A stretch of 64,000 nucleotides of DNA from the IMG/VR virus record IMGVR_UViG_3300027782_000030, positions 1 through 64,000 of that record; one strand, written 5' to 3'. Source of the DNA: a virus. Lineage: Duplodnaviria; Caudoviricetes. A program made the position numbers and the translations under genes. Within the stretch, counting starts at the first letter, position 1; every line of letters begins with the position of its first letter. The notes below the pieces were generated by a model, which was given only the letters and a program-made list of their open reading frames with translations, searched no databases and had not been told where the DNA came from. Positions 9,257 through 50,442 of the stretch are shown here, in pieces.

Positions 9257-9330
9257 TGGAGCGGGTAGCGAGAATCGAACTCGCAAATAATCCTTGGCAA
9301 GGATTCAGGTTACCTTTACATCATACCCGC
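9257..9330 (-). tRNA. trnG: tRNA-Gly(GCC)
   Basis: Cloverleaf; AATCC-TTGCCAA-GGATT anticodon arm; encoded CCA. Confidence 0.93.
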
Positions 9331-10358
9331 GCTTTCAATGTAGCATTTACTCTACGAACACTGTGACTAATACCACAGTACTGTGTACACTTTGACATAA
9401 CATTCCTTAAGTTGTCAGTACCATACCAAAATCTTTTCAAGTCACCGTATCTCTTTATTTTAAACCCAGGGAACTTATGTGAGAAGCATAAACGGGCAAT
9501 CCCATCCATATCTACCATAATATTTCTGTCGAAGGAATTACAAATCAATTTTTCAGTACCTCGACCATTCCAACCGATCACCGCATCGTTGTTTTTGTGA
9601 ACACTACGATGGTACATCTCAACTGTTTCAATCCATTCAGGATCTAAACTTAGGTTATATTTTTCATTACAATCATTTAATATTTTAAACAACCCTTCAT
9701 GATCTCTAATGACATTGTTGTCGTAAAACTTATCAGCCCGTTGTTTGCCATCTTTATCTATCAGTGTACCAAACATTGGCTGAAGCCAATTTAATTTTAA
9801 CTTATCTGCTTTTAGATCATTCAATACAAAGTCATAAAATTTATCTAAATCTCTGTAATTTTGTTCGCACATTATAGACATTGCGTATACAGGATTAGAT
9901 TTATTTAATTCTTTTCTTGCTTGAAGCAATAGACGAATAGCATTAACAGCCATATCAAATGATCCTACCATGCCTCTAGTTGAATCATGTACTTCAGGTA
10001 TATAACTGTTTAGTGATATAGTAATCTCAGTTGGACCTTCAACGATTAACTTTTTAGCCATTGACAAATCAGTAACCATTGTACCGTTCATCACTGATAA
10101 ACATCTTAGTCCTAATTGGCGACAATATCTAGTAATTGGCCAATATCTTTCAGGATTCATTAATGCTTCACCGCCACATATTACTACTGCACCATGTGGA
10201 TTTAATTCATGAAATTCCTGAATAATATTCCCGCGTTCTTCTATAGTGATATGAGTAGGTAATACAACTTCTTCCCTAGTCCAATACATGCAGGTTTTAC
10301 ATTTTAGATTACACTGTAAGTTAGTATCTAAGAATAGAAATTTTGGCGGGTGATTCAT
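9321..10358 (-). CDS. Radical SAM protein with C-terminal Cys cluster
   Basis: CNLKCKTC motif, GGEAL; stop codon lies within tRNA-Gly. Confidence 0.88.
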   Translation of the reverse strand: MNHPPKFLFLDTNLQCNLKCKTCMYWTREEVVLPTHITIEERGNIIQEFHELNPHGAVVICGGEALMNPERYWPITRYCRQLGLRCLSVMNGTMVTDLSMAKKLIVEGPTEITISLNSYIPEVHDSTRGMVGSFDMAVNAIRLLLQARKELNKSNPVYAMSIMCEQNYRDLDKFYDFVLNDLKADKLKLNWLQPMFGTLIDKDGKQRADKFYDNNVIRDHEGLFKILNDCNEKYNLSLDPEWIETVEMYHRSVHKNNDAVIGWNGRGTEKLICNSFDRNIMVDMDGIARLCFSHKFPGFKIKRYGDLKRFWYGTDNLRNVMSKCTQYCGISHSVRRVNATLKARV

Positions 10359-13796: not shown

Positions 13797-13825
13797 AGTA
13801 TAGCAAACTATAAAATAATTGTCAA
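13797..13825 (-). promoter_or_regulatory. sigma70-type promoter
   Basis: TTGACA-N17-TATACT with TG. Confidence 0.8.
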
Positions 13826-14451
13826 ATTTTGGATGCGATATTATCAGGAAGATTCTTTAAATCAAAGCCTAAATTAGCTAATTTTTCTTTACCTTGTGGA
13901 CTTAATTTGACAAATCCAACTATTATCTTTTCATGCGGTTCACCCTGAATTAATCTAGTATAATGATATCCATCAGGGTTTAATTCTAATATCTTTTTAC
14001 CAGTTAAAAACTCAGCATATTTATTGTCAATTGGCTTTGCGCCTGCTTTAAGCATTATTTTTTCAGCAGGTCCGCTTACTTCTGCCCATGCTCTTTTTGT
14101 TTTAATGTCATCATTTTTGAGCATATTATAATCTTTTAATCCTTGTGTAGTGGCTTTATATTTACCTTCAGGATTAAGTTCTGTTTCAGTAGCACTAGCA
14201 ATCATTTTAAAATTATCCGTATTAGGTACTTGTTTATAAACACCTAATGCAGTTATGTGATCACCACGGCGAACTACTTTCCAATAACCAGGATCATTTG
14301 CTAATTCTTCAGGACTATTGGCACTTTTAAAGCCGCCAATCTTTTTGTAACTACGCTGAAGCATATCCCATATTTTATCCGCATACTTCATTTTTTCTTC
14401 AGGAGTATGTAGATTAAGAACCTTTTCAACTAATAATTGATGATAACGCAT
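13822..14451 (-). CDS. Hypothetical phage protein
   Basis: 209-aa ORF preceded by CATAAATA. Confidence 0.7.
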   Translation of the reverse strand: MRYHQLLVEKVLNLHTPEEKMKYADKIWDMLQRSYKKIGGFKSANSPEELANDPGYWKVVRRGDHITALGVYKQVPNTDNFKMIASATETELNPEGKYKATTQGLKDYNMLKNDDIKTKRAWAEVSGPAEKIMLKAGAKPIDNKYAEFLTGKKILELNPDGYHYTRLIQGEPHEKIIVGFVKLSPQGKEKLANLGFDLKNLPDNIASKI

Positions 14452-19628: not shown

Positions 19629-20327
19629 ATGTTTAATTATAACTCAATATACATTAATTATGCAAATATGAGCATACCCTGGTGTCCAATGGACACGGCA
19701 CAACTCTATATGAAAAATCGTATTAAAAATATCAAAATGTTAAAACAAAACGGTTGGATAAATAATACTTTTGATTATTCATTTAATTCTAAAGGATTTA
19801 GATGTAAAGAGTTCACATCTGATCCTACAATTATGTTTTTAGGCTGTAGTTATACCTGTGGTATTGGGTTACCTGTTGAAACTATTTGGCCTGAATTAGT
19901 AGCCAAATCATTAAAAATGAAATGTGCTAATTTGGGACAGGGCGCAGGATCGTGTGATACTGCATTTAGATTATGTTTGGGATATATTGATAAAATTAAA
20001 CCAAAAATTGTTATTTTTTTACAGCCACCAAATATTCGTTGGGAATTAGTTTCAAAAAATAATATAAATTTATTAGGTATATGGGCAGTAGATAAGATTA
20101 GTAATTATAAAAGTTATATACAAGACTATAGCATTGACGAAAATAATAACTATTTTAATAGTTATAAAAATATTCTAGCAGTTGAATCGTTGTGTGAAAA
20201 AAGGCAAATAAAATTTTTGCATTTTGATTCATATAATCATGGCAAATCTGATTTAGCAAGAGATTTAGTACATCCCGGAATTGAGGCTAACTTACAATTT
20301 TCTACCATGGTATTATCTAAATTATAA
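19629..20327 (+). CDS. Hypothetical protein, SGNH-like
   Basis: FLGCSYTCG...DLARDLVHPG; own ATAAATA motif; antisense to flanking tRNAs. Confidence 0.6.
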   Translation: MFNYNSIYINYANMSIPWCPMDTAQLYMKNRIKNIKMLKQNGWINNTFDYSFNSKGFRCKEFTSDPTIMFLGCSYTCGIGLPVETIWPELVAKSLKMKCANLGQGAGSCDTAFRLCLGYIDKIKPKIVIFLQPPNIRWELVSKNNINLLGIWAVDKISNYKSYIQDYSIDENNNYFNSYKNILAVESLCEKRQIKFLHFDSYNHGKSDLARDLVHPGIEANLQFSTMVLSKL

Positions 20328-25364: not shown

Positions 25365-26036
25365 ATGCCAAAAATAAATTATTTTTTAGATTCATACAAA
25401 TATTTTTGCCAATTAAACCAAGAGCCAATCACAGGTTCCGTATTAGACTATGGCTGTAACTATGGTAGATTTTTAGAAAGTAGCAGAAGTTTATTCCCTG
25501 AAAACATGTACACTGGCATAGATGTAGATTTACAAGCTTTACAAGCTGGGGAGATAATGTTTCCAAATGCAAAATTTATTCATTATGACAAACATAATTT
25601 TATGTACAATCCAACCGGGGCTAAAAGCTTTTGGCCCGAGATTAATGACCAATTTGACTGTATTATAAGCTATAGCGTTATAACGCATACCACAAAAGAA
25701 GACATGTTAGATGCTATTGCATGGCTCTATACTAAGTTGAAATCAGGTAAAAAAATGTTTATTACTTGGTTAGATCATGAAAATAAAATAGCTTTAGCTT
25801 ACTTTTATCAAAAACGTATGAAAGATTTTGGTAGTTGTGATAGGATTCAAACAGAAGATTACGTTTACCTCATTGACAATAAAACATCCAAAGTACCCAA
25901 TGATGGAATGTTTTTAGCTTTTTACAAAAAAGAATATTTGGCTAGCTTGTTGTCCGATTATAATTTTTCTTTAGAGCAATCACCTGATTTTACTAATAGA
26001 TGTTTTCAAGACTGTATAATTATAAAGAAAATATAA
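25365..26036 (+). CDS. Class I SAM-dependent methyltransferase
   Basis: VLDYGCNYG, YTGIDVD, YSVITHT. Confidence 0.82.
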   Translation: MPKINYFLDSYKYFCQLNQEPITGSVLDYGCNYGRFLESSRSLFPENMYTGIDVDLQALQAGEIMFPNAKFIHYDKHNFMYNPTGAKSFWPEINDQFDCIISYSVITHTTKEDMLDAIAWLYTKLKSGKKMFITWLDHENKIALAYFYQKRMKDFGSCDRIQTEDYVYLIDNKTSKVPNDGMFLAFYKKEYLASLLSDYNFSLEQSPDFTNRCFQDCIIIKKI

Positions 26037-30027: not shown

Positions 30028-30939
30028 TTATTTGATATTTAAATCGTTAAGAATTTTTTGATGTTGTTTTAAAATTTTTATGCTTTCAATTTTAGCAGCC
30101 TCACCAAATATGCCAATTGGGATAGACCCTTTACTTAGCATATCTCTTCTAGTCTCTGCTGAATTCATTTCAGTTTGAAAGTCATTGATAATTTTTTCTT
30201 TAACAGATAAAGGTAATGACTTATCAACAACTACCCCTAAAGTTAATTGCGTTGGAAATTTTTCTTTATACTCTTCGACCCAAGTATTAACCTTTACACC
30301 CGTAAAAGAAATATCGTGAGTAGAAATTATTAAATTTATTTTGTCATTATTGATGAAAGAGAGTATTGTAGGTAAATTTGCAAAATAGCAATCTACATGT
30401 CCTCCCAACAAATCAAGTGTTGGTTTATTTCCACCCGTAATATAGTTAACTATTTGATGATCTTTGTTTATTTTATTAAAAAATATTTTAGAAGTTATTT
30501 CTTCTACCCCGTTAACAGCGGTACTTGCAAAATTCAAATCCTTTTTATAATTTGATATATCACGAACATTTTTAAATCCCAAATCTGTCCTACATGCTAA
30601 TACAGCCGGACTTGATGCAATTAATCCAATTATCTCAAGGTCATCTACATTGTAAATTAAATTTTCCTTATATATAATTTTATTAGTAACAAATGTATTT
30701 TCCATGACAACGAATGACATAGATTTTTTTTCTTGCATTTCTCGTATACCAAGCTGACCGTTTGCCCCTGGTTTATTAGTAACTATATAATTTAATGATA
30801 ACTTATTTTTTATCAATGCTCTAGCTATAATATCAGTATTACCACCAACCGCATACCCAACAATTAGTTCTTGTTGACGATTAGCAAAGCTATTTGTTAT
30901 TAACCCAAAAATTAAAACTAATTTAATTAGAACTTTCAT
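30028..30939 (-). CDS. Bug/TctC-family substrate-binding protein
   Basis: Signal peptide; VGYAVGGNTDIIAR, NKPGANG, DLLGGHVD. Confidence 0.82.
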   Translation of the reverse strand: MKVLIKLVLIFGLITNSFANRQQELIVGYAVGGNTDIIARALIKNKLSLNYIVTNKPGANGQLGIREMQEKKSMSFVVMENTFVTNKIIYKENLIYNVDDLEIIGLIASSPAVLACRTDLGFKNVRDISNYKKDLNFASTAVNGVEEITSKIFFNKINKDHQIVNYITGGNKPTLDLLGGHVDCYFANLPTILSFINNDKINLIISTHDISFTGVKVNTWVEEYKEKFPTQLTLGVVVDKSLPLSVKEKIINDFQTEMNSAETRRDMLSKGSIPIGIFGEAAKIESIKILKQHQKILNDLNIK

Positions 30940-32077
30940 TTTTCATTTTTCCTACTCTGTAAATTTTTTTAAATGATACGAGGCCCTCAGGACCGTTGTC
31001 ATTTGTATACACATATTTACTAGCCATTTTAACCATAGAGTTTATTCCCTCTTTCCAAATTTGGTAGGCTCTAGATTCTGTATGGTTGATTAAAAACCAA
31101 TGGTCATACTCTCTATTCCAATCTAAGATTGGCTTATCAGCTTGAAACCAATTATTATTCCAAGTTGAATAAATTATATTTCTCAGCATTTTCTCATGAA
31201 TAAGATTATAAACTTTAGTACCAATTGGTACAGTCCAAATTTTTTGATGTACAGGATTTAACTCTAAGTATTTTTTAATAACATGTGCTTGTTTACATAT
31301 TATTTCAAATGCATTTGGGTTCCAGTAAAAATACTCTACTGTTGCATTATCATATCCTTGAAGGTAATTTTCTACCCCCGAATTAGTAGCTCTATCGGTA
31401 AAACCAACAACAAAATCATTAAATTTATTAATAGCAGATCTAGGTTTACATACACCTAATATTACACCAATTTTTTGATTTTTATCTAAAACTTTTCTTA
31501 CATCATCAATAGCAGCAATATCCCACCTGACCCCACTGACCGGGCTTAGTAATTCTCTCCGATTTTCAATCCATCCATCGTCATTGCTTTTTAAATAAGA
31601 ATCAAAGACATGGTCAGTTAAATCCGATACCGTAATTTTTATATCAGGATATAAATTGTGAATATCTTTCAGCCTAGGTATTGTTTGTAAAACATGCTCA
31701 GAATATAATGAATTGGATGAAGATTGATCGTTTTTATCTAAGTTTTTTACTGAAACTGTTCCTTTTTCAAAATGAATAACTAGCAGTTCATCAACCTTTA
31801 AATTTTGACGAAGGAAGCTAGTTAACAAATTATGTGAGTCTGCTCCACCACTATATAGAATTATAATATAATCATATTTTTCCCGCAATTCCCTGGCTCT
31901 TTTGTCATATAACTCATCAAGAGTTTGGTTAGGTTCTACTGTCCAATCAAATTTATCAAAAGCATTATCATAAAACGCCCATTCTACTTCTTGATTAGTT
32001 TCGGTAGCATGAATGCAAGCTAAAATTTTATTAGTAAATGTTTTAGATCCTACACGGTAGTAGCTGTTATTTTTCAT
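30923..32077 (-). CDS. PP-loop (N-type ATP pyrophosphatase / asparagine-synthase-like) protein
   Basis: LYSGGADSHN motif. Confidence 0.7.
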   Translation of the reverse strand: MKNNSYYRVGSKTFTNKILACIHATETNQEVEWAFYDNAFDKFDWTVEPNQTLDELYDKRARELREKYDYIIILYSGGADSHNLLTSFLRQNLKVDELLVIHFEKGTVSVKNLDKNDQSSSNSLYSEHVLQTIPRLKDIHNLYPDIKITVSDLTDHVFDSYLKSNDDGWIENRRELLSPVSGVRWDIAAIDDVRKVLDKNQKIGVILGVCKPRSAINKFNDFVVGFTDRATNSGVENYLQGYDNATVEYFYWNPNAFEIICKQAHVIKKYLELNPVHQKIWTVPIGTKVYNLIHEKMLRNIIYSTWNNNWFQADKPILDWNREYDHWFLINHTESRAYQIWKEGINSMVKMASKYVYTNDNGPEGLVSFKKIYRVGKMKNESSN

Positions 32078-44064: not shown

Positions 44065-45072
44065 TTAACATTTATCTACTAAGTTATCTCTGAAGATGCG
44101 CCAACATTCTTCCCAACTCCAACGTAGGCTAGCTTCTTCTACACGAATACGATCCAATCTTAAACATTGATCTATGGCTGTTTTTAAATCTTCATCCATA
44201 TAGCCTGTAACACCTTGATCTATAACATCTTTAGGTCCAACAACTGGATATGCTGCTACTGGTGTACCACAGGCCATTGCTTCAATCATTACTATACCAA
44301 ATGTATCCCAACGACTGGGGAATACAAATACATCAGCATCGGCATAATATTTGGCTAGTTCTGCCCCACGCTTCACCCCAACGAATTCAACATCAGGGTA
44401 TTCACGCTCCATACGGCGCCGGCATGGGCCATCACCTACTACTATTTTGGTAGCACCGGGATATGCTAACCTACAAAACTCATCTAAATTCTTTTCTTTA
44501 CTAACACGCCCTACGCTTAACAATATGGGTTGTGACTGTTCTGTAGCTGTTCTAGTGCTACTACCAAATATGCTACGATCAACCCCGCGAGTCCAAGGTT
44601 TAATATCAGTTCTAAATCCACGATTGGCTAGATCATCCACCATGCTTTGTGTAGTAGTTAGTACACGACCGCTGTGTTTATGAAACCAGCGTAAATAGCG
44701 ATAACTCCAACTTGTTGGTATGCCCGCAATCTTTTCTAGTGCTTCGGGGAAACGAGTGTGATAACTGGTATTGTAACACCAACCCCAATAGTCCATCCAA
44801 CAACGAGCAGCGAAGCCTACTGGCCCTTCTGTAGCAATGTGTATGTAGTCAGGATTTACTTTTTCAATAATCCTGCCAATCCCCCAAGTCCAACTAAGTT
44901 TGATCTCATTATAACCAGGGCAGGGAATATTATGGAACTGCCTGGGGTCAAGATAAACAAAATCATACCCATCACGCTCAGCCAAAACTTCCAAGTTATG
45001 AAATGTTGTAACAACGCCATTGATTTGTGCAGGTTCATTGTCGGTTATGATTAATACTGTTTTCATTTTCAC
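44065..45072 (-). CDS. agt: GT4 glycosyltransferase, Agt-like (diacylglycerol glycosyltransferase)
   Basis: NGVV.T, HIATEGPVG, TSYHTRFPE, FPSRWDTFGIVMIEAMACGTPV; coupled downstream of plcP-like gene. Confidence 0.75.
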   Translation of the reverse strand: MKMKTVLIITDNEPAQINGVVTTFHNLEVLAERDGYDFVYLDPRQFHNIPCPGYNEIKLSWTWGIGRIIEKVNPDYIHIATEGPVGFAARCWMDYWGWCYNTSYHTRFPEALEKIAGIPTSWSYRYLRWFHKHSGRVLTTTQSMVDDLANRGFRTDIKPWTRGVDRSIFGSSTRTATEQSQPILLSVGRVSKEKNLDEFCRLAYPGATKIVVGDGPCRRRMEREYPDVEFVGVKRGAELAKYYADADVFVFPSRWDTFGIVMIEAMACGTPVAAYPVVGPKDVIDQGVTGYMDEDLKTAIDQCLRLDRIRVEEASLRWSWEECWRIFRDNLVDKC

Positions 45073-45835
45073 GCACCTCTGACCAAGTTATAATTTCCCA
45101 ACGACCATCCCAATGTTCAACTAGTGCGGTACAACTTTCACACCAGTCACCATCGTTCATGTAGATTACGCCGTTGATTTCTTTGATTTCAGCCTTATGT
45201 ATATGCCCACAGATCACACCATCGTAGCCCTTCTTTTTGCAATAACCGGCTAGATTTTGTTCAAATTGAAACATAAAGTCTACCGCTTTTTTGACCCGGT
45301 GCTTAAGGTACAAGCTAAGGCTCCAGTAGCCAAAACCCAAACGATGACGAATCCAATTGAGTTTAGTATTGATATTGAGTACGCAGTCATATGCTTTGTC
45401 TCCTAATATGCTGAGCCAAGGGGCCAGCCTAGTAATACCATCAAATAAATCACCATGAACTACAAGATACCTTTTTCCATCTATACCGGTGTGAATAGCC
45501 TGATTACAGATTTTAATACGACCAAAACTAACACCATATGGTATAAGTGGGCGTAAAAATTCATCATGATTGCCTGCTACATAAACTACCTGTGTTCCGT
45601 GTTTAGCATGTCCTAATACACGGCGAATGACATTGGTATGGCTTTGATGCCACTTTAATGTGTTTTGTTTCATTTTCCACGCATCTATTATGTCACCCAC
45701 TAGATACAGTGTTTCACATGTATTATGTTTAAGAAAGTTGTTTAGATAGTCTGCTTTACAGGCTTTGGTACCGAGATGTACATCACTGATAGAGATTGTA
45801 CGATAAGTTTTTTGCGCCATACTACTATTTAACAA
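45035..45835 (-). CDS. plcP: PlcP-like phospholipase C (LpxH-like metallophosphoesterase)
   Basis: SDVHLG, LVGDIID.W, GNHDEFLR, HGDLFD, YWSLS..LK..VKKAV, CGHIH, GDWCESCTALVE. Confidence 0.8.
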   Translation of the reverse strand: MLNSSMAQKTYRTISISDVHLGTKACKADYLNNFLKHNTCETLYLVGDIIDAWKMKQNTLKWHQSHTNVIRRVLGHAKHGTQVVYVAGNHDEFLRPLIPYGVSFGRIKICNQAIHTGIDGKRYLVVHGDLFDGITRLAPWLSILGDKAYDCVLNINTKLNWIRHRLGFGYWSLSLYLKHRVKKAVDFMFQFEQNLAGYCKKKGYDGVICGHIHKAEIKEINGVIYMNDGDWCESCTALVEHWDGRWEIITWSEVRENENSINHNRQ

Positions 45836-45860
45836 TAGTTATATTACAAACCTATTACAT
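45826..45860 (-). promoter_or_regulatory. Pho-box-like repeat plus TTAAATA
   Basis: ATGTAAT-AGGT-TTGTAAT-N10-TTAAATA. Confidence 0.7.
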
Positions 45861-45887
45861 ATAAAAGCAACAACATAAAGAAATTAA

Positions 45888-46499
45888 TTATGTATGGTAA
45901 GTTACTATTATTTCTTCTTTTTCAAAACTCGGGAATATGAATTCATTATTATGATGCATTCTTTTATTCTTTTCTAAATTTTCAAATCCAATTCCTAACA
46001 TTACTAATGGATTATCTTCTAAATTTAATATTTCTTTTATTACTTGATTATTAAAACAAGAACAAAATCCGGTGTAATACCCTAGAATATGGGATATCAT
46101 ATTTATATATCCAAGAGCGATTCCTATTGAAATATAAGCATCTCTTACATAAGAACTATCGGTAGATTCTCTAATCTGATCAGGATATCTTTTTTTATTA
46201 ATTATTGAATCGCTTGGCGATTTACGTTCAAACACTAATAATAGATTAGCTAAAACTTGAGGATTTGTATAAATGTGACCAAACCCTAAAGTGTTTTCAT
46301 GTATTTTTTCAATAATTTCCCTGTTCGTAATAGCATGAATTTTATAATGTGCAATATTTTGTTTACTTGGACATTGGGTAGCAGCCGTTATAATTACATC
46401 TAAATCTTCTTTTGAAATTTCTTTAGATAGATTCCAATTCCTCTGACAATGCTGGCTTCGATTAATAATATTCTTAAGTTCAGGTTGATCTAATATCAT
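45888..46499 (-). CDS. Nitroreductase-family protein
   Basis: RSQHCQRNW, ATQCPSKQN, GYYTGFC motifs. Confidence 0.75.
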   Translation of the reverse strand: MILDQPELKNIINRSQHCQRNWNLSKEISKEDLDVIITAATQCPSKQNIAHYKIHAITNREIIEKIHENTLGFGHIYTNPQVLANLLLVFERKSPSDSIINKKRYPDQIRESTDSSYVRDAYISIGIALGYINMISHILGYYTGFCSCFNNQVIKEILNLEDNPLVMLGIGFENLEKNKRMHHNNEFIFPSFEKEEIIVTYHT

Positions 46500-46538
46500 T
46501 TACTCATTCTCTTAATCCTAAGTATTTATTCTAACCAT

Positions 46539-46562
46539 AAAAAAAGAGCCTCACGGCCCTTT
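46539..46562 (-). terminator. Intrinsic terminator
   Basis: AAAGGGCC-GTGA-GGCTCTTTTTTT. Confidence 0.8.
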
Positions 46563-46645
46563 AGTGCTGGTTACGAGCTTCCAGCGATCCCTCTATCATG
46601 GGTCCGTTTTAAACAACCTTTTAATCCATATTCTTAATCTAAGTA

Positions 46646-47287
46646 TTACTTTCCCAATAAACTGTCGACCTTTGCTTCAACTGCATCTAACCGATGTTCA
46701 ATTTCATCTAGTGCAGGATCTGCTGGAGCGGAAACTGCTTCAAATATTTGTTGATGGACTTCAGAATTAACTGCTTCTCCTGTTGCTGTTGAAACAATAT
46801 GAGCTACCGCAGCGGCAATTTCTTCTGTACCTGCAGTTGGTGCAGGCATTTCAGCAACTGCTGCTGTAATAGCGGCTGTAATTGCTTCAGGGTCTGTGAC
46901 AACTTCAGGCTCTGCTGTAACAACTGCTAGTACCGCTGCTTTTACAATATCAGCAACTTCAGGGTTAACAATTGCATCTGCTTCGTGTTGAGCAGCTACT
47001 ACATCGCCAACAATGCCTGCGGCTTCTGCATGGTCAGCACTTGGTGAAAGTGCTAGTACATCTTCAACAGAAACTGGTGCTTCATCAGCTACGGAATAAA
47101 CAATGGCGTCAATATGGCTCTCAGTTTTTTCAGCGATCAAATGATCAACTTGAACTTCAACAACTGACAATCTGGTGTCTAGTTCTTCAATGCTTGTGGC
47201 ATAATCTGTGTTAACTTCTGTGCCAGTTAGTGTTGCTAACTTAGCTTCTACTGCTACTAATCTTGCGGCTAAATCTTGTAATCTCAT
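46646..47287 (-). CDS. Acidic Ala/Glu-rich protein with RL.(A/V)VE coiled-coil motifs
   Basis: AAGGAG RBS before MRLQDL; three related heptad motifs. Confidence 0.7.
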   Translation of the reverse strand: MRLQDLAARLVAVEAKLATLTGTEVNTDYATSIEELDTRLSVVEVQVDHLIAEKTESHIDAIVYSVADEAPVSVEDVLALSPSADHAEAAGIVGDVVAAQHEADAIVNPEVADIVKAAVLAVVTAEPEVVTDPEAITAAITAAVAEMPAPTAGTEEIAAAVAHIVSTATGEAVNSEVHQQIFEAVSAPADPALDEIEHRLDAVEAKVDSLLGK

Positions 47288-47333
47288 GGGTTGCTCCTTT
47301 AGGTTAGGTGAGTGAATCATGTCCACTCACCCT

Positions 47334-47368
47334 TATTTAACTGCTACTATATTAAAGTAATATTACAA
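47334..47368 (-). promoter_or_regulatory. Pho-box-like repeat plus TTAAATA
   Basis: TTGTAAT-ATTA-CTTTAAT-N10-TTAAATA. Confidence 0.6.
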
Positions 47369-47372
47369 AATA

Positions 47373-48947
47373 TCAGAAACTCAATAATAGTAGCTGTCCA
47401 CCTTCAACCAGTTCAGCAGCATTAGTACCAGTGGCTAGTTTATGATTTTGATCAACCAACAAGAAGTAACGCTTGCCATCTGTACGACCTAAGATACTAG
47501 TGATTTCAATGATACCGCTGGTTTCTTCGTCATTGGTCTCAGTTCCAACAACACCTGTGTAATAATCACCAAACAGCTTCTCATCATGTTGAGCAAGTAG
47601 TGTCAATGCCTTAGTAACAGGATTGTATTTCCAAATCTTACCATTGTGATTGTTACCACCAACATCCTCTTGTAGAATGATTGTGCCATCGCTAGCAACA
47701 GTCATGTTGTCAAACATCTGTGTTCCATGAATACGGCCGGCAACTGTAACAGTTTCAGTACCATCGAGCACCATTTCAAGGATGCCACCCGATTCAGGAC
47801 GGGTTAAATCAGTAAATGTCATGCTCCAAAGGCGTGTGCGACCAACTTGAGCAGTATTAGTAATACTGGTATTGATCTTGCCCCCGGTGTTGTCTTTAGC
47901 AGCATCTACTGTGTTGGTTGTTACAAAGTAGTAGCGGTTCTTGTTAACTGTATCCCAAGCACCATCTTCTGGACGCAAGAAACTTGTACCAGCAACACCA
48001 GTTACTGGGACATTAGGAACAAAACTAAATGTAGCAGTCTTATTGACCAGTCCTAGTCCAGCATCAACAGCGGTAGTTTCATTAGCAGCAACACCGCCAA
48101 CATTGACCACAGCACGATATAGCGTACCATTAGTTAGACCTGCTTTATCAACTTCAGTAGCACCAGTCTTGTTTTTAGTGCCAACATACATATAAACACC
48201 ATTGCTGCCACTGTCGCTATTGGCCATAACAATGGTCTTGTCACCGCTGTTGGGATGTGCGATTAGATTTTCCCAGCCTACACCAAATGTGGTAAATCCA
48301 CCAAAGTGTGGGAGAATGTATGCTTTGCCTTTGTCTGCTCCGCTGGCCACGATAGCAAGACCGCGTCCCATTGTAACAGTACCGTTAGCGGTTTCTTCAC
48401 CAGTCATAAACATTTTAACCGAAGAACCATTGCCTGTTGCTGAGTTGAAGAAAGCGCCGGCTGCTGGTAGATCGGCTGAACAGAAACGCTGAAATGCTAC
48501 AGCAGTTTGCTCGGCCCAAGCACCATTGACCTGTGCATAAACTTTTTTCATTAGGTCACTACCGCTCTTGACCTGTAGAGTAGTTTTATCAATAACCCAC
48601 TCACTAACAAAAGCACCAATACCACCATGAGCACGGGCAATACCAACAGTGTTGGCCAGTTCATGAGCCATTAGCACGGTGAATGTGTTGTCACCATTAT
48701 CATAAGCACCCAGTCCATCTGGAATACCCACCATGCGATAAGTGCCAACAGCGTCACCAACGGTTAAGATACTGGCAACTTTAACGCTGCTGTCAATTGG
48801 AACAATGTAGGGATCTACTGAACTGCTAACTGCTTTGCCTGATGTAAAACCAGTAACTTCTTTAGGTGCTGCTACAGTGGTGTCATCGCTACCACATGCT
48901 GTTAATAGAGCCGTTGCTACGGCTACTGCTAGAACGGTATATTTCAT
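47373..48947 (-). CDS. phoX: PhoX/DUF839-family alkaline phosphatase lipoprotein
   Basis: Lipobox LTAC; RFCS, GEE, RPEDG, DNMTV...QED motifs; directly after pstS. Confidence 0.72.
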   Translation of the reverse strand: MKYTVLAVAVATALLTACGSDDTTVAAPKEVTGFTSGKAVSSSVDPYIVPIDSSVKVASILTVGDAVGTYRMVGIPDGLGAYDNGDNTFTVLMAHELANTVGIARAHGGIGAFVSEWVIDKTTLQVKSGSDLMKKVYAQVNGAWAEQTAVAFQRFCSADLPAAGAFFNSATGNGSSVKMFMTGEETANGTVTMGRGLAIVASGADKGKAYILPHFGGFTTFGVGWENLIAHPNSGDKTIVMANSDSGSNGVYMYVGTKNKTGATEVDKAGLTNGTLYRAVVNVGGVAANETTAVDAGLGLVNKTATFSFVPNVPVTGVAGTSFLRPEDGAWDTVNKNRYYFVTTNTVDAAKDNTGGKINTSITNTAQVGRTRLWSMTFTDLTRPESGGILEMVLDGTETVTVAGRIHGTQMFDNMTVASDGTIILQEDVGGNNHNGKIWKYNPVTKALTLLAQHDEKLFGDYYTGVVGTETNDEETSGIIEITSILGRTDGKRYFLLVDQNHKLATGTNAAELVEGGQLLLLSF

Positions 48948-48972
48948 TTTAAAACTCCTTTTGTATGTTTGT

Positions 48973-49953
48973 TTATTTGACTAACTTTGCCCAATCGGCA
49001 CGAACTTGATCCTTAACCTTTTGGGGTAATGGAACATAATCTAGGTCTGTAGCGTCCTTGTCACCCTTTGTATAGACCCAATCAAAAAATTTGGTAACTT
49101 GTTTTGTTCGCTCTCCAGTAGGATATATGAGAATAAATGTAGCGGCAGTAATAGGCCATCCATCTAAATCATTGAGATTAACTGCCATGTTGGGCACTGA
49201 CCAGTCAGCAGTCTTGGCACTTTCAGCAAATGTTAAGTCATCTGGTTGAACTACAGCACCTTTGCGGTTCTTCATGGCCACATGAGTTAGTTTGCTCTGT
49301 TTAGCAAATGCGTACTCAACATAACCAATTGATCCTGCTAGTTGTTGAACGTTAGCAGCAACACCAGCATTACCTTTACCTGCTGAAAGACTTGTTGGCT
49401 TCCAAGTAACAGTTTTACCTGTACCAGTACCTGTTTTGAACTCAGGACTTACTTTACTCAAGTAATCAGTAAACACAGCAGTTGTACCTGATCCATCAGC
49501 ACGAACCACTACATTGATAGCAGCATCAGGAAGTGCTAGACCTGGGTTAAGTTTAACAATAGCAGCATCGTTCCACTTGCTGATTTTACCTTGATAAATG
49601 TCAGCTAGTGTCTTGCCATCAAGAATCATTTTACCTGGCTCAATACCTTTGATATTGATTACAGCAACAACTCCACCGATAACTGATGGGAATTGATATA
49701 GTCCAACTTCTTTTAATTTAGTATCTGGTGTAGGATCATCACTAGCACCAAAGTCTACGGTTTTAGCAATGATTTGAGCGACACCGCCACCACTTCCGAT
49801 TGGATTGTAGTTAACAGTAGTACCAGTTTCTTTGTTGTAGGCTGCTGCCCATTTTGAATAAATAGGAGCCGGGAAAGTTGCCCCGGCTCCAGTAATCTGT
49901 GCTTGTGCAGCAAATGCGGCTGCGGCTAATAGAATTCCAACAATTTTTTTCAT
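48973..49953 (-). CDS. pstS: Phosphate ABC transporter substrate-binding protein
   Basis: GAGATFPAPIY.KW, GSGGG, DFGASD, RADGSGTT, IGYVEY. Confidence 0.96.
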   Translation of the reverse strand: MKKIVGILLAAAAFAAQAQITGAGATFPAPIYSKWAAAYNKETGTTVNYNPIGSGGGVAQIIAKTVDFGASDDPTPDTKLKEVGLYQFPSVIGGVVAVINIKGIEPGKMILDGKTLADIYQGKISKWNDAAIVKLNPGLALPDAAINVVVRADGSGTTAVFTDYLSKVSPEFKTGTGTGKTVTWKPTSLSAGKGNAGVAANVQQLAGSIGYVEYAFAKQSKLTHVAMKNRKGAVVQPDDLTFAESAKTADWSVPNMAVNLNDLDGWPITAATFILIYPTGERTKQVTKFFDWVYTKGDKDATDLDYVPLPQKVKDQVRADWAKLVK

Positions 49954-49990
49954 CTAATTTCCTTTATAGTATTGTGCATTTGCACAATAC

Positions 49991-50025
49991 TATTTAAACA
50001 TATTAATGTTACAGGAATATTACAA
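49991..50025 (-). promoter_or_regulatory. Pho-box-like repeat plus TTAAATA
   Basis: TTGTAAT-ATTC-CTGTAAC-N10-TTAAATA, followed by a 13-bp hairpin (49966-49993). Confidence 0.75.
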
Positions 50026-50061: not shown

Positions 50062-50442
50062 TTAGACAGATTGTTTTGATTTATAATCTTCAATAGCCGA
50101 CTTGATTGCGTCTTCTGCTAAGATTGAGCAGTGGATTTTGACTGGCGGGAGGGCGAGTTCTTCTGCAATCTGTGTGTTTCTAATTGTTGCTGCCTCGTCG
50201 AGGGTTTTGCCTTTAACCCACTCTGTGACAAGACTTGAGCTAGCAATCGCTGACCCGCACCCATACGTTTTAAATCTAGCATCTTCTATTACTCCATTTT
50301 CATTTACTTTAATTTGAAGTTTCATCACATCACCGCATGCTGGGGCTCCGACTAGTCCAGTACCTATTGTATTGTCAATTTCAAATTTTCCAACATTGCG
50401 TGGGTTTTCATAATGCGATAATACTTGTGGTGAATAAGCCAT
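50062..50442 (-). CDS. iscU: Fe-S cluster scaffold
   Basis: HYENPRNVG, APACGDVMKL, GCGSAIAS, LPPVKIHCSILAEDA. Confidence 0.97.
   Translation of the reverse strand: MAYSPQVLSHYENPRNVGKFEIDNTIGTGLVGAPACGDVMKLQIKVNENGVIEDARFKTYGCGSAIASSSLVTEWVKGKTLDEAATIRNTQIAEELALPPVKIHCSILAEDAIKSAIEDYKSKQSV

What the first reader, a model, noticed from the sequence alone, without database searches (positions are those of the whole stretch)
45826..50025. Three identical-geometry hybrid promoters: Pho box, exactly 10 nt, TTAAATA
Seen upstream of pstS-phoX (TTGTAAT-N4-CTGTAAC), the acidic protein (TTGTAAT-N4-CTTTAAT) and plcP-agt (ATGTAAT-N4-TTGTAAT): an 11-bp-period repeat, then exactly 10 nt, then TTAAATA. Established: PhoB boxes are 11-bp-period repeats (CTGTCAT consensus) about 10 nt upstream of the -10, and TAAATA is the T4-type late core. 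Inference: either host PhoB activates the phage late-sigma holoenzyme (an AND gate of late stage and P starvation, which would be a new activator-sigma pairing), or one element serves both sigma70-PhoB and late transcription.
Basis: partly seen in the sequence, partly recalled or inferred. Interest (0 to 1): 0.8.

Follow-up and report, generated by a model that had tools for sequence, protein, structure and literature searches.

The report
Phosphate-sensor boxes on phage late promoters
A large uncultured freshwater phage puts a binding site for its host's phosphate-starvation regulator (PhoB) at a fixed distance in front of its own late-promoter core, upstream of three phosphate-related gene units; many related phages share the design, but which RNA polymerase form reads it is still open.

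Summary
Three minus-strand sites (45826-45859, 47334-47367, 49991-50024) each read Pho-box repeat, 10 nt, TTAAATA. Shuffles of the window give none, and these are the only intergenic Pho boxes in the 200-kb record.

The phage is T4-like. It has a gp55-type late sigma and a late motif, consensus ATAAATA, in front of virion genes. Classic TTGACA-N17-TATAAT early promoters are a separate class.

The nearest bacterial pstS genes (Burkholderiales) carry the same box and the same 10-nt spacer, followed by TAnnnT and never by TAAATA. A pattern scan of IMG/VR returned 115 distinct box-N11-TAAATA sites. Of the 82 with an ORF just downstream, 69 precede homologues of plcP, pstS or the acidic protein. 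plcP starts 4-8 nt after the motif, as this phage's leaderless late genes do.

The composite module is therefore real, conserved and selected. The tools cannot say which sigma PhoB works with. My best reading (0.45) is one core read by two holoenzymes. A PhoB-plus-late-sigma AND gate (0.2) and a plain sigma70 promoter (0.2) remain open.

Host PhoB control of phage P genes is already known from cyanophages. I found no paper describing its fusion to a late-type core. This scan had already noted the same design on other phage genomes.

The parts
50008..50025 (-). P1 Pho box (TTGTAAT-ATTC-CTGTAAC), upstream of pstS
   Evidence: Same repeat type and period as Burkholderiales pstS promoters.
49991..49997 (-). 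P1 late-type core TTAAATA, 10 nt after the box (spacer 49998-50007)
   Evidence: Conserved with a diverged spacer in L001, L003, L004, L008, L021 and L119.
49969..49990 (-). Hairpin (9 bp) at the predicted 5' end of the P1 leader; it does not cover the ribosome site
   Evidence: -12.4 kcal/mol, z -4.95. Similar hairpins with other sequences occur in relatives.
48973..49953 (-). pstS, phosphate-binding protein
   Evidence: PRK10918, E 6.5e-121; PBP_like_2.
47373..48947 (-). 524-aa lipoprotein-like ORF, possibly PhoX-like, 25 nt after pstS (same transcription unit)
   Evidence: No Pfam, NCBIfam or PDB hit. Atlas features are nearest PhoX/DUF839 at 0.96. Treat as a lead only.
47351..47368 (-). 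P2 Pho box (TTGTAAT-ATTA-CTTTAAT)
47334..47340 (-). P2 late-type core TTAAATA, 10 nt after the box
   Evidence: Homologous promoters in L125/L126 carry ATAAATA at the same place, and L127 and L042 carry TTAAATA.
46646..47290 (-). Acidic 214-aa protein of a virus-only family, function unknown. It has a Shine-Dalgarno site and an 11-bp leader hairpin at 47306-47332.
46543..46562 (-). Intrinsic terminator that ends the P2 unit
46523..46529 (-). Canonical late motif ATAAATA with no Pho box, driving the nitroreductase gene (45888-46499)
   Evidence: This is an internal contrast: a neighbouring non-P gene has the consensus late core and no box.
45843..45860 (-). P3 Pho box (ATGTAAT-AGGT-TTGTAAT)
45826..45832 (-). 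P3 late-type core TTAAATA, 10 nt after the box and 5 nt before the plcP ATG (leaderless geometry)
   Evidence: The same geometry holds in L042, L043 and about 30 further plcP promoters.
45035..45820 (-). plcP-like calcineurin/LpxH-type phosphoesterase
44065..45072 (-). agt-like GT4 glycosyltransferase. It overlaps the end of plcP and has no promoter of its own.
   Evidence: 21 of 21 homologues have neither box nor TAAATA upstream.

Best explanation
These are composite promoters. A host-type Pho box sits where a -35 element would be, and the -10 position is filled by the phage's own late-promoter core (xTAAATA) instead of a bacterial TAnnnT. The most likely working is one core read by two holoenzymes. 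In a phosphate-starved host, PhoB~P on the box recruits sigma70 RNA polymerase to this weak -10-like element and switches on pstS plus the PhoX-like gene, the acidic protein, and plcP-agt. Late in infection the gp55-type sigma reads the same core and starts at the same +1, which gives phosphate-independent expression. Both modes share one start site, and at plcP that site is the A of the ATG (a leaderless mRNA). Shown here: the two elements, their fixed spacing, their conservation, their link to P genes, and the gp55 homologue. Inferred: PhoB binding, phosphate induction, and which sigma is used.
For: (1) The box matches bacterial Pho boxes. In Burkholderiales and other proteobacterial pstS promoters fetched by protein homology, TGTCAY/TGTAAY-N5-TGTCAY is followed by exactly 10 nt and then TAnnnT in about 26 of 30 promoter-proximal boxes.
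(2) The phage sites keep that box and spacer but carry xTAAATA. There are 13 distinct examples in protein-selected viral loci. Their spacers are fully diverged and TAAATA is invariant.
(3) xTAAATA is the phage's late-type motif. ATAAATA occurs 42 times in the 80 nt upstream of genes against 3.4 expected. It lies before baseplate wedge, portal, terminase, virion and fibre genes. A gp55 homologue is encoded (phrog_12791 E 4e-72; PDB 7d7c_F).
(4) In the IMG/VR pattern scan, 69 of 82 sites with a downstream ORF precede plcP (36), pstS (25) or acidic-protein (8) homologues.
(5) plcP starts 4-8 nt after TAAATA. That is the same distance distribution as the leaderless late genes without a box, so both modes must share the late-type start site.
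(6) L046 keeps CTAAATA plus 5 nt plus ATG at plcP with no box, so the core can probably drive the gene alone.
(7) The phage's sigma70-type early promoters (TTGACA-N17-TATAAT/TATACT) are a separate class.
(8) Host PhoBR control of cyanophage P genes is established experimentally (PMC10976474).
Against: As a sigma70 -10 the element is poor in either register. TTAAAT lacks the A at -11, and TAAATA lacks the T at -7. Every bacterial Pho promoter examined has both. Box-bearing leaderless sites avoid the consensus A before TAAATA (3 of 25 against 30 of 57 without a box, Fisher p 5e-4, not corrected for relatedness). A promoter meant to work well in late mode would not be expected to do this. Other ATAAATA-using phages drive pstS from box + 10 nt + TATATA or TAAATT, so the fusion is lineage-specific and not required.
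Confidence: 0.45

Rival explanations
1. AND gate. PhoB~P bound at the box activates RNA polymerase carrying the phage gp55-type late sigma, through contacts with core subunits and not with sigma region 4. The genes would then fire only late and only in P-starved cells.
For: The -10 position holds the late core and never TAnnnT. The start geometry equals that of generic late promoters. Box-bearing sites avoid the optimal A before TAAATA, as expected for weak cores that depend on an activator. A second spacing class exists, with the box one helical turn further away (21-22 nt: L044, L248, L264, L265, L294). That fits face-of-helix contact better than a fixed sigma-4 contact. OmpR/PhoB-family activators also touch the beta flap, alpha NTD and alpha CTD in cryo-EM activation complexes (PMC11825685).
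Against: The established route of PhoB activation is recruitment of sigma70 region 4 (Blanco et al. 2011, cited in PMC11825685; otherwise my own knowledge). gp55 aligns only to the sigma-2-like part. In T4, gp33 occupies the beta flap (my own knowledge). No host activator is known to work with a T4-type late sigma; the literature search for gp55 with PhoB found nothing relevant. Non-A variants of the core also serve ordinary late genes with no box.
Confidence: 0.2
2. Plain PhoB/sigma70 promoters. The TAAATA is just an A+T-rich -10 hexamer, 11 nt from the box, that happens to look like the late core, and the late sigma does not use it.
For: The box sequence, period and spacer are canonical. The position before TAAATA is unconstrained in box-bearing sites, as expected for position -13 of a sigma70 promoter. 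Other phage lineages have box + 10 nt + TAAATT, TATAAT or TATATA; the TATATA type shows that an A at the last hexamer position is tolerated. Activator-dependent promoters usually have poor -10 elements (general knowledge).
Against: All six bases of TAAATA stay invariant while the spacers randomise. That is more constraint than TAnnnT needs. In this register 9 of 25 plcP sites leave only 4 nt between hexamer and ATG. That is too short for a sigma70 start at the A of a leaderless AUG, yet it is typical of this phage's late sites. No bacterial Pho promoter examined uses TAAATA. L046 keeps the core without any box.
Confidence: 0.2
3. The repeats bind a factor other than host PhoB, for example a phage-encoded regulator, and only mimic a Pho box.
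For: Binding is untested. The record is only about 58% complete, so a phage regulator could lie in the missing part. The authors of the S-PM2d study warn that predicting Pho boxes in phages from sequence is unreliable (PMC10976474).
Against: Relatives use TGTCAC/TGTCAT boxes identical to the bacterial ones. The controlled genes are classic Pho-regulon functions. No OmpR/PhoB-type winged-helix domain (PF00486) is found in the 200 kb held.
Confidence: 0.05

Closest known systems
Host PhoBR control of cyanophage P genes (P-SSM2 pstS/phoA, Zeng and Chisholm 2012 as cited in PMC10976474; S-PM2d genes with PhoB gel shifts, PMC10976474)
   Same: A lytic T4-like phage carries host-derived P-acquisition genes behind host-type Pho boxes, so the host's phosphate sensor sets their expression.
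   Different: Here the boxes are of the proteobacterial CTGTCAT type and not the cyanobacterial PyTTAAPyPy(T/A) type. They sit at a fixed 10 nt from the phage's late core instead of a sigma70 -10. The regulon includes plcP-agt and a virus-only acidic protein. Nothing is tested experimentally. The S-PM2d paper does not mention late promoters.
Bacterial Pho-regulon promoters (E. coli pstS, phoA, phoE; Burkholderiales pstS promoters read here)
   Same: Two 7-bp direct repeats with an 11-bp period replace the -35 element. The box ends 10 nt before the -10 position (PMC3978041).
   Different: Bacterial promoters have TAnnnT at that position. The phage has [T/A/G/C]TAAATA, which breaks the sigma70 rule in either register.
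T4-type late promoters (TATAAATA read by gp55, with gp33 and the gp45 clamp; PDB 7D7C/7D7D)
   Same: The same core family occurs before virion genes. A gp55 homologue is present. The distance from core to start site fits.
   Different: T4 late promoters have no upstream sequence element (my own knowledge). These three have a conserved activator site. The base before TAAATA departs from the phage's consensus A. This sigma carries an insertion of about 170 aa.
T4 middle promoters (MotA box at -30 with AsiA-remodelled sigma70)
   Same: An activator site replaces the -35 element at a fixed distance from a -10 element in a T4-like phage.
   Different: The partners are reversed. There a phage activator works with the host sigma; here a host activator sits in front of a phage-type core. 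No MotA or AsiA was looked for here.

Membership tests
PhoB-dependent (Pho box) promoter | Two 7-bp direct repeats resembling CTGTCAT, with an 11-bp period | tested here: met
   Same form as the bacterial boxes.
PhoB-dependent (Pho box) promoter | The box replaces the -35 element and ends 10 nt upstream of the -10 element | tested here: met
   Exactly 10 nt at all three sites and in 19 of 20 relatives when 8-13 nt to TAAATA was allowed.
PhoB-dependent (Pho box) promoter | A sigma70 -10 hexamer of the TAnnnT type | tested here: not met
   The element reads TTAAAT at 10 nt or TAAATA at 11 nt. The bacterial comparison set has TAnnnT in about 26 of 30 boxes.
PhoB-dependent (Pho box) promoter | Downstream genes serve phosphate acquisition or phosphate sparing | tested here: met
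   pstS; plcP-like and GT4 agt-like genes; 69 of 82 sites in IMG/VR precede these gene families.
PhoB-dependent (Pho box) promoter | PhoB~P binds the site and expression rises under P limitation | not testable with these tools
T4-type late promoter | A TATAAATA-like core about 10 bp upstream of the start site | tested here: inconclusive
   TAAATA matches fully. The preceding base is T where the phage consensus is A, at 64% of generic sites. TTAAATA also serves three other leaderless genes in this genome.
T4-type late promoter | The phage encodes a gp55-type sigma | tested here: met
   G000:C1:82848-83747(-): phrog_12791 E 4e-72; PDB 7d7c_F gp55 E 1.4e-4.
T4-type late promoter | The motif marks virion and packaging genes | tested here: met
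   (portal, large terminase, baseplate wedge, fibre and virion proteins).
T4-type late promoter | No upstream promoter element; activation comes from the sliding clamp | tested here: not met
   A conserved box lies upstream. A BLAST search with T4 gp45 found nothing, but the record is only 58% complete, so this is uninformative.
T4-type late promoter | Late timing and dependence on the late sigma | not testable with these tools
   No transcript data were available.

The most novel reading that the evidence does not exclude
Host PhoB~P directly activates RNA polymerase carrying the phage's gp55-type late sigma. The contacts would be with core subunits and independent of sigma region 4. Phosphate-scavenging and lipid-remodelling genes would then fire only when infection is late and the cell is P-starved. 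This would be a host activator paired with a phage sigma, for which I know no precedent.
Probability: 0.2. Interest if true: 0.85.

Novelty: new variant of a known kind. Interest (0 to 1): 0.66.

Why it matters
It is known from cyanophages that phages read host nutrient status through host regulators. Here the sensor site is welded to the phage's own promoter type. It controls phosphate uptake, a phospholipid-to-glycolipid remodelling pair and an unknown phage protein, and it recurs in a large group of uncultured freshwater phages.

If PhoB works with the late sigma, that is a new way to activate a sigma that has no -35-reading domain. If the core is dual-use, it is a compact way to combine conditional and programmed expression from a single start site, including leaderless mRNAs. 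Either way the design gives clean, short templates for in vitro transcription. It also offers a sequence signature for finding phage Pho regulons in metagenomes.

Tried and rejected

2. Chance: rejected. The window gives 0.00 expected hits, and the IMG/VR hits are overwhelmingly upstream of three gene families.

I used protein-selected loci instead.

4. The idea that any phage with ATAAATA late promoters will have TAAATA-type Pho promoters: rejected. The lineage with box + 10 nt + TATATA also shows ATAAATA enriched upstream of its ORFs.

5. The idea that T before TAAATA is selected for sigma70 position -12: not supported for plcP sites, where G is commonest. The signal there is avoidance of A.

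6. A phage-borne PhoB: no PF00486 match was found, though the record is incomplete.

7. A BLAST search with T4 gp45 found nothing, which is uninformative. gp33, AsiA and MotA were not searched.

8. A PHROG scan of small in-window ORFs for gp55 was negative. The gene lies outside the window.

10. Cultured relatives: the nearest plcP in an isolate is Pelagibacter phage Mosig at 48.6% identity. IMG/VR plcP homologues at a similar identity (47-50%) have neither box nor core upstream.

11. Complex prediction of PhoB with the late sigma was not run. The host is unknown and a stand-in PhoB would not have moved my odds.


Full report
**What is there**

The window is the first 64 kb of a 200,570-bp IMG/VR phage record (35.9% G+C; CheckV completeness about 58%). 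All genes of the finding lie on the minus strand. Read on that strand, the three sites are exactly as described:
- P1: TTGTAAT-ATTC-CTGTAAC, 10 nt, TTAAATA, 37 nt before the pstS ATG.
- P2: TTGTAAT-ATTA-CTTTAAT, 10 nt, TTAAATA, before the acidic-protein gene.
- P3: ATGTAAT-AGGT-TTGTAAT, 10 nt, TTAAATA, only 5 nt before the plcP ATG at 45820.

The composite pattern hits 45826-45859, 47334-47367 and 49991-50024. Shuffles of the window give 0.00 hits. It occurs nowhere else in the record. Of 8 relaxed Pho boxes in the 200 kb, only these three are followed by the core upstream of a gene.

**The transcription units**

- P1 drives pstS (NCBIfam PRK10918, E 6.5e-121) and a 524-aa ORF 25 nt downstream. 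The 'phoX' label for that ORF rests only on language-model features (0.96 to PhoX/DUF839). Pfam, NCBIfam and PDB searches find nothing.
- P2 drives a 214-aa acidic protein of a virus-only family and ends at a terminator at 46543-46562.
- Next comes a nitroreductase gene behind a canonical ATAAATA with no box.
- P3 drives a calcineurin/LpxH-type phosphoesterase (plcP-like) and an overlapping GT4 glycosyltransferase (agt-like).

**What the two elements are**

The phage has two clear promoter classes. About 15 sites read TTGACA-N17-TATAAT or TATACT, the sigma70 early type. Separately, ATAAATA occurs 42 times in the 80 nt upstream of genes against 3.4 expected. CTAAATA, GTAAATA and TTAAATA are minor variants.

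The motif precedes baseplate wedge, portal, large terminase, virion and tail-fibre genes. A gp55 homologue lies at G000:C1:82848-83747 (phrog_12791 E 4e-72; PDB 7d7c_F aligns to residues 6-27 and 200-267). TAAATA is therefore the core of a T4-type late promoter, and TTAAATA is a real but minor form. Besides P3, three ordinary genes carry TTAAATA 4-6 nt before their ATG.

The repeats are host Pho boxes by every sequence test available. The nearest bacterial PstS proteins are from freshwater Burkholderiales (57-60% identity). Their pstS promoters carry TGTCAY/TGTAAY-N5-TGTCAY, then exactly 10 nt, then TAnnnT, in about 26 of 30 promoter-proximal boxes. None carries TAAATA. The phage keeps box and spacer and swaps the -10 element.

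**Conservation**

In viral loci fetched by protein homology, and so not selected by motif, there are 13 distinct promoters with box + 10 nt + xTAAATA. They precede pstS, plcP and acidic-protein homologues. Their spacers are unrelated and TAAATA is invariant. Some carry the full consensus ATAAATA (L095, L114, L125, L127).

Of 115 distinct sites, 82 have an ORF starting within 90 nt. Of those, 69 are homologues of plcP (36), pstS (25) or the acidic protein (8), and others look like phosphate permeases.

Other phage lineages drive pstS from box + 10 nt + TAAATT, TATAAT or TATATA. The TATATA lineage also shows ATAAATA enriched upstream of its ORFs. The fusion is therefore a lineage-specific design and not a necessity.

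Variants also exist:
- L046 keeps CTAAATA + 5 nt + ATG with no box.
- L010 and L294 have TAAGTA in place of TAAATA.
- L044, L248, L264, L265 and L294 have the box 21-22 nt from the core, one helical turn further out.

**Start-site geometry**

In this genome 18 of 43 upstream ATAAATA sites end 4-8 nt before an ATG, including the portal gene. With a T4-type core centred near -10 (my own knowledge), that places +1 on the A of the ATG, so these would be leaderless mRNAs. plcP promoters with a box show the same distances (4 nt: 9 sites; 5: 9; 6: 4; 7: 2; 8: 1) as box-less leaderless sites in the same loci (mode 5).

A sigma70 start from TAAATA taken as the hexamer would need about 6 nt to the start site, so the many 4-nt cases fit badly. 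The alternative register (xTAAAT) lacks the A at -11. This favours late-type initiation, at least at plcP.

Against a simple 'also a good late promoter' view, box-bearing leaderless sites avoid the consensus A before TAAATA. The count is 3 of 25 against 30 of 57 (Fisher p 5e-4, not corrected for relatedness).

**Mechanism**

Established knowledge says PhoB activates by recruiting sigma70 region 4 (Blanco et al. 2011, cited in PMC11825685). gp55 has only the sigma-2-like part. Cryo-EM complexes of an OmpR/PhoB-family activator also show contacts with the beta flap, alpha NTD and alpha CTD (PMC11825685), so a route independent of region 4 is conceivable.

My odds are:
- 0.45 for one core read by sigma70 + PhoB under P stress and by the late sigma on schedule.
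- 0.20 for PhoB acting on the late holoenzyme (AND gate).
- 0.20 for a plain PhoB/sigma70 promoter that only resembles the late core.
- 0.05 for a binder other than PhoB.
- The remainder is unassigned.

No OmpR-type DNA-binding domain is encoded in the 200 kb held.

**Novelty**

Host PhoBR control of cyanophage genes is established, with gel shifts for S-PM2d (PMC10976474). That paper never mentions late promoters. Searches for gp55 with PhoB, and for Pho box with late promoter in phages, found no description of this fusion. No paper returned by the search that combined plcP with phage terms mentions plcP at all.

This scan had already noted the same design on other phage genomes (17 notes in at least 12 genomes). 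Follow-up reports on two of them reached a similar reading. I reached mine from my own calls before reading theirs.

My verdict: a new variant of a known kind, with a 0.2 chance of being a new pairing of a host activator with a phage sigma.

Noticed in passing
window 9321-10358(-), 13822-14451(-), 19629-20327(+), 25365-26036(+), 30923-32077(-); G000 71544-73331(-) portal: Many genes start 4-8 nt after the late motif, with no Shine-Dalgarno site. This applies to 18 of 43 upstream ATAAATA sites, and the same holds in relatives. Leaderless late mRNAs seem to be routine in this phage group. I found no paper describing this for T4-like phages.
   Followed up: partly
window 49969-49990(-) and 47306-47332(-): Stable hairpins sit at the predicted 5' ends of the pstS and acidic-protein mRNAs (-12.4 and -17.3 kcal/mol). 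All 8 acidic-protein leaders and about half of the pstS leaders in relatives have one, with different sequences and often a TGTGC...GCACA stem. They do not cover the ribosome site. They may be 5'-end stabilisers.
   Followed up: partly
window 45888-46529(-): A nitroreductase-family gene with its own consensus late motif lies between the P2 terminator and P3. In close relatives L042 and L043 the terminator abuts the plcP Pho box directly, so this gene looks like a recent insertion.
   Followed up: partly
G000:C1:82848-83747(-), outside the window: The gp55-type late sigma is 299 aa, against 185 aa in T4. T4 gp55 aligns to residues 6-27 and 200-267, which leaves an insertion of about 170 aa of unknown function.
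   Followed up: partly
L044, L248, L264, L265, L294 (plcP promoters of relatives): A second spacing class exists. The Pho box lies 21-22 nt from TAAATA (TAAGTA in L294) instead of 11, one helical turn further out, and the leaderless core is kept.
   Followed up: partly
window 30028-30939(-): A TctC/Bug-family solute-binding protein gene (Pfam PF03401, E 1.1e-16). My own knowledge is that this family is greatly expanded in Burkholderiales, which fits the PstS affinities and points to such a host.
   Followed up: no
window 47373-48947(-): The 524-aa ORF after pstS has a lipoprotein-like N-terminus and no Pfam, NCBIfam, PHROG or PDB match. Language-model features place it next to PhoX/DUF839. It may be a very divergent phage PhoX.
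   Followed up: partly
window 50062-50442(-): An IscU/NifU-like iron-sulfur scaffold gene (Pfam NifU_N, E 6e-52) sits behind CTAAATA. No terminator separates it from P1, so late read-through into pstS is possible.
   Followed up: no
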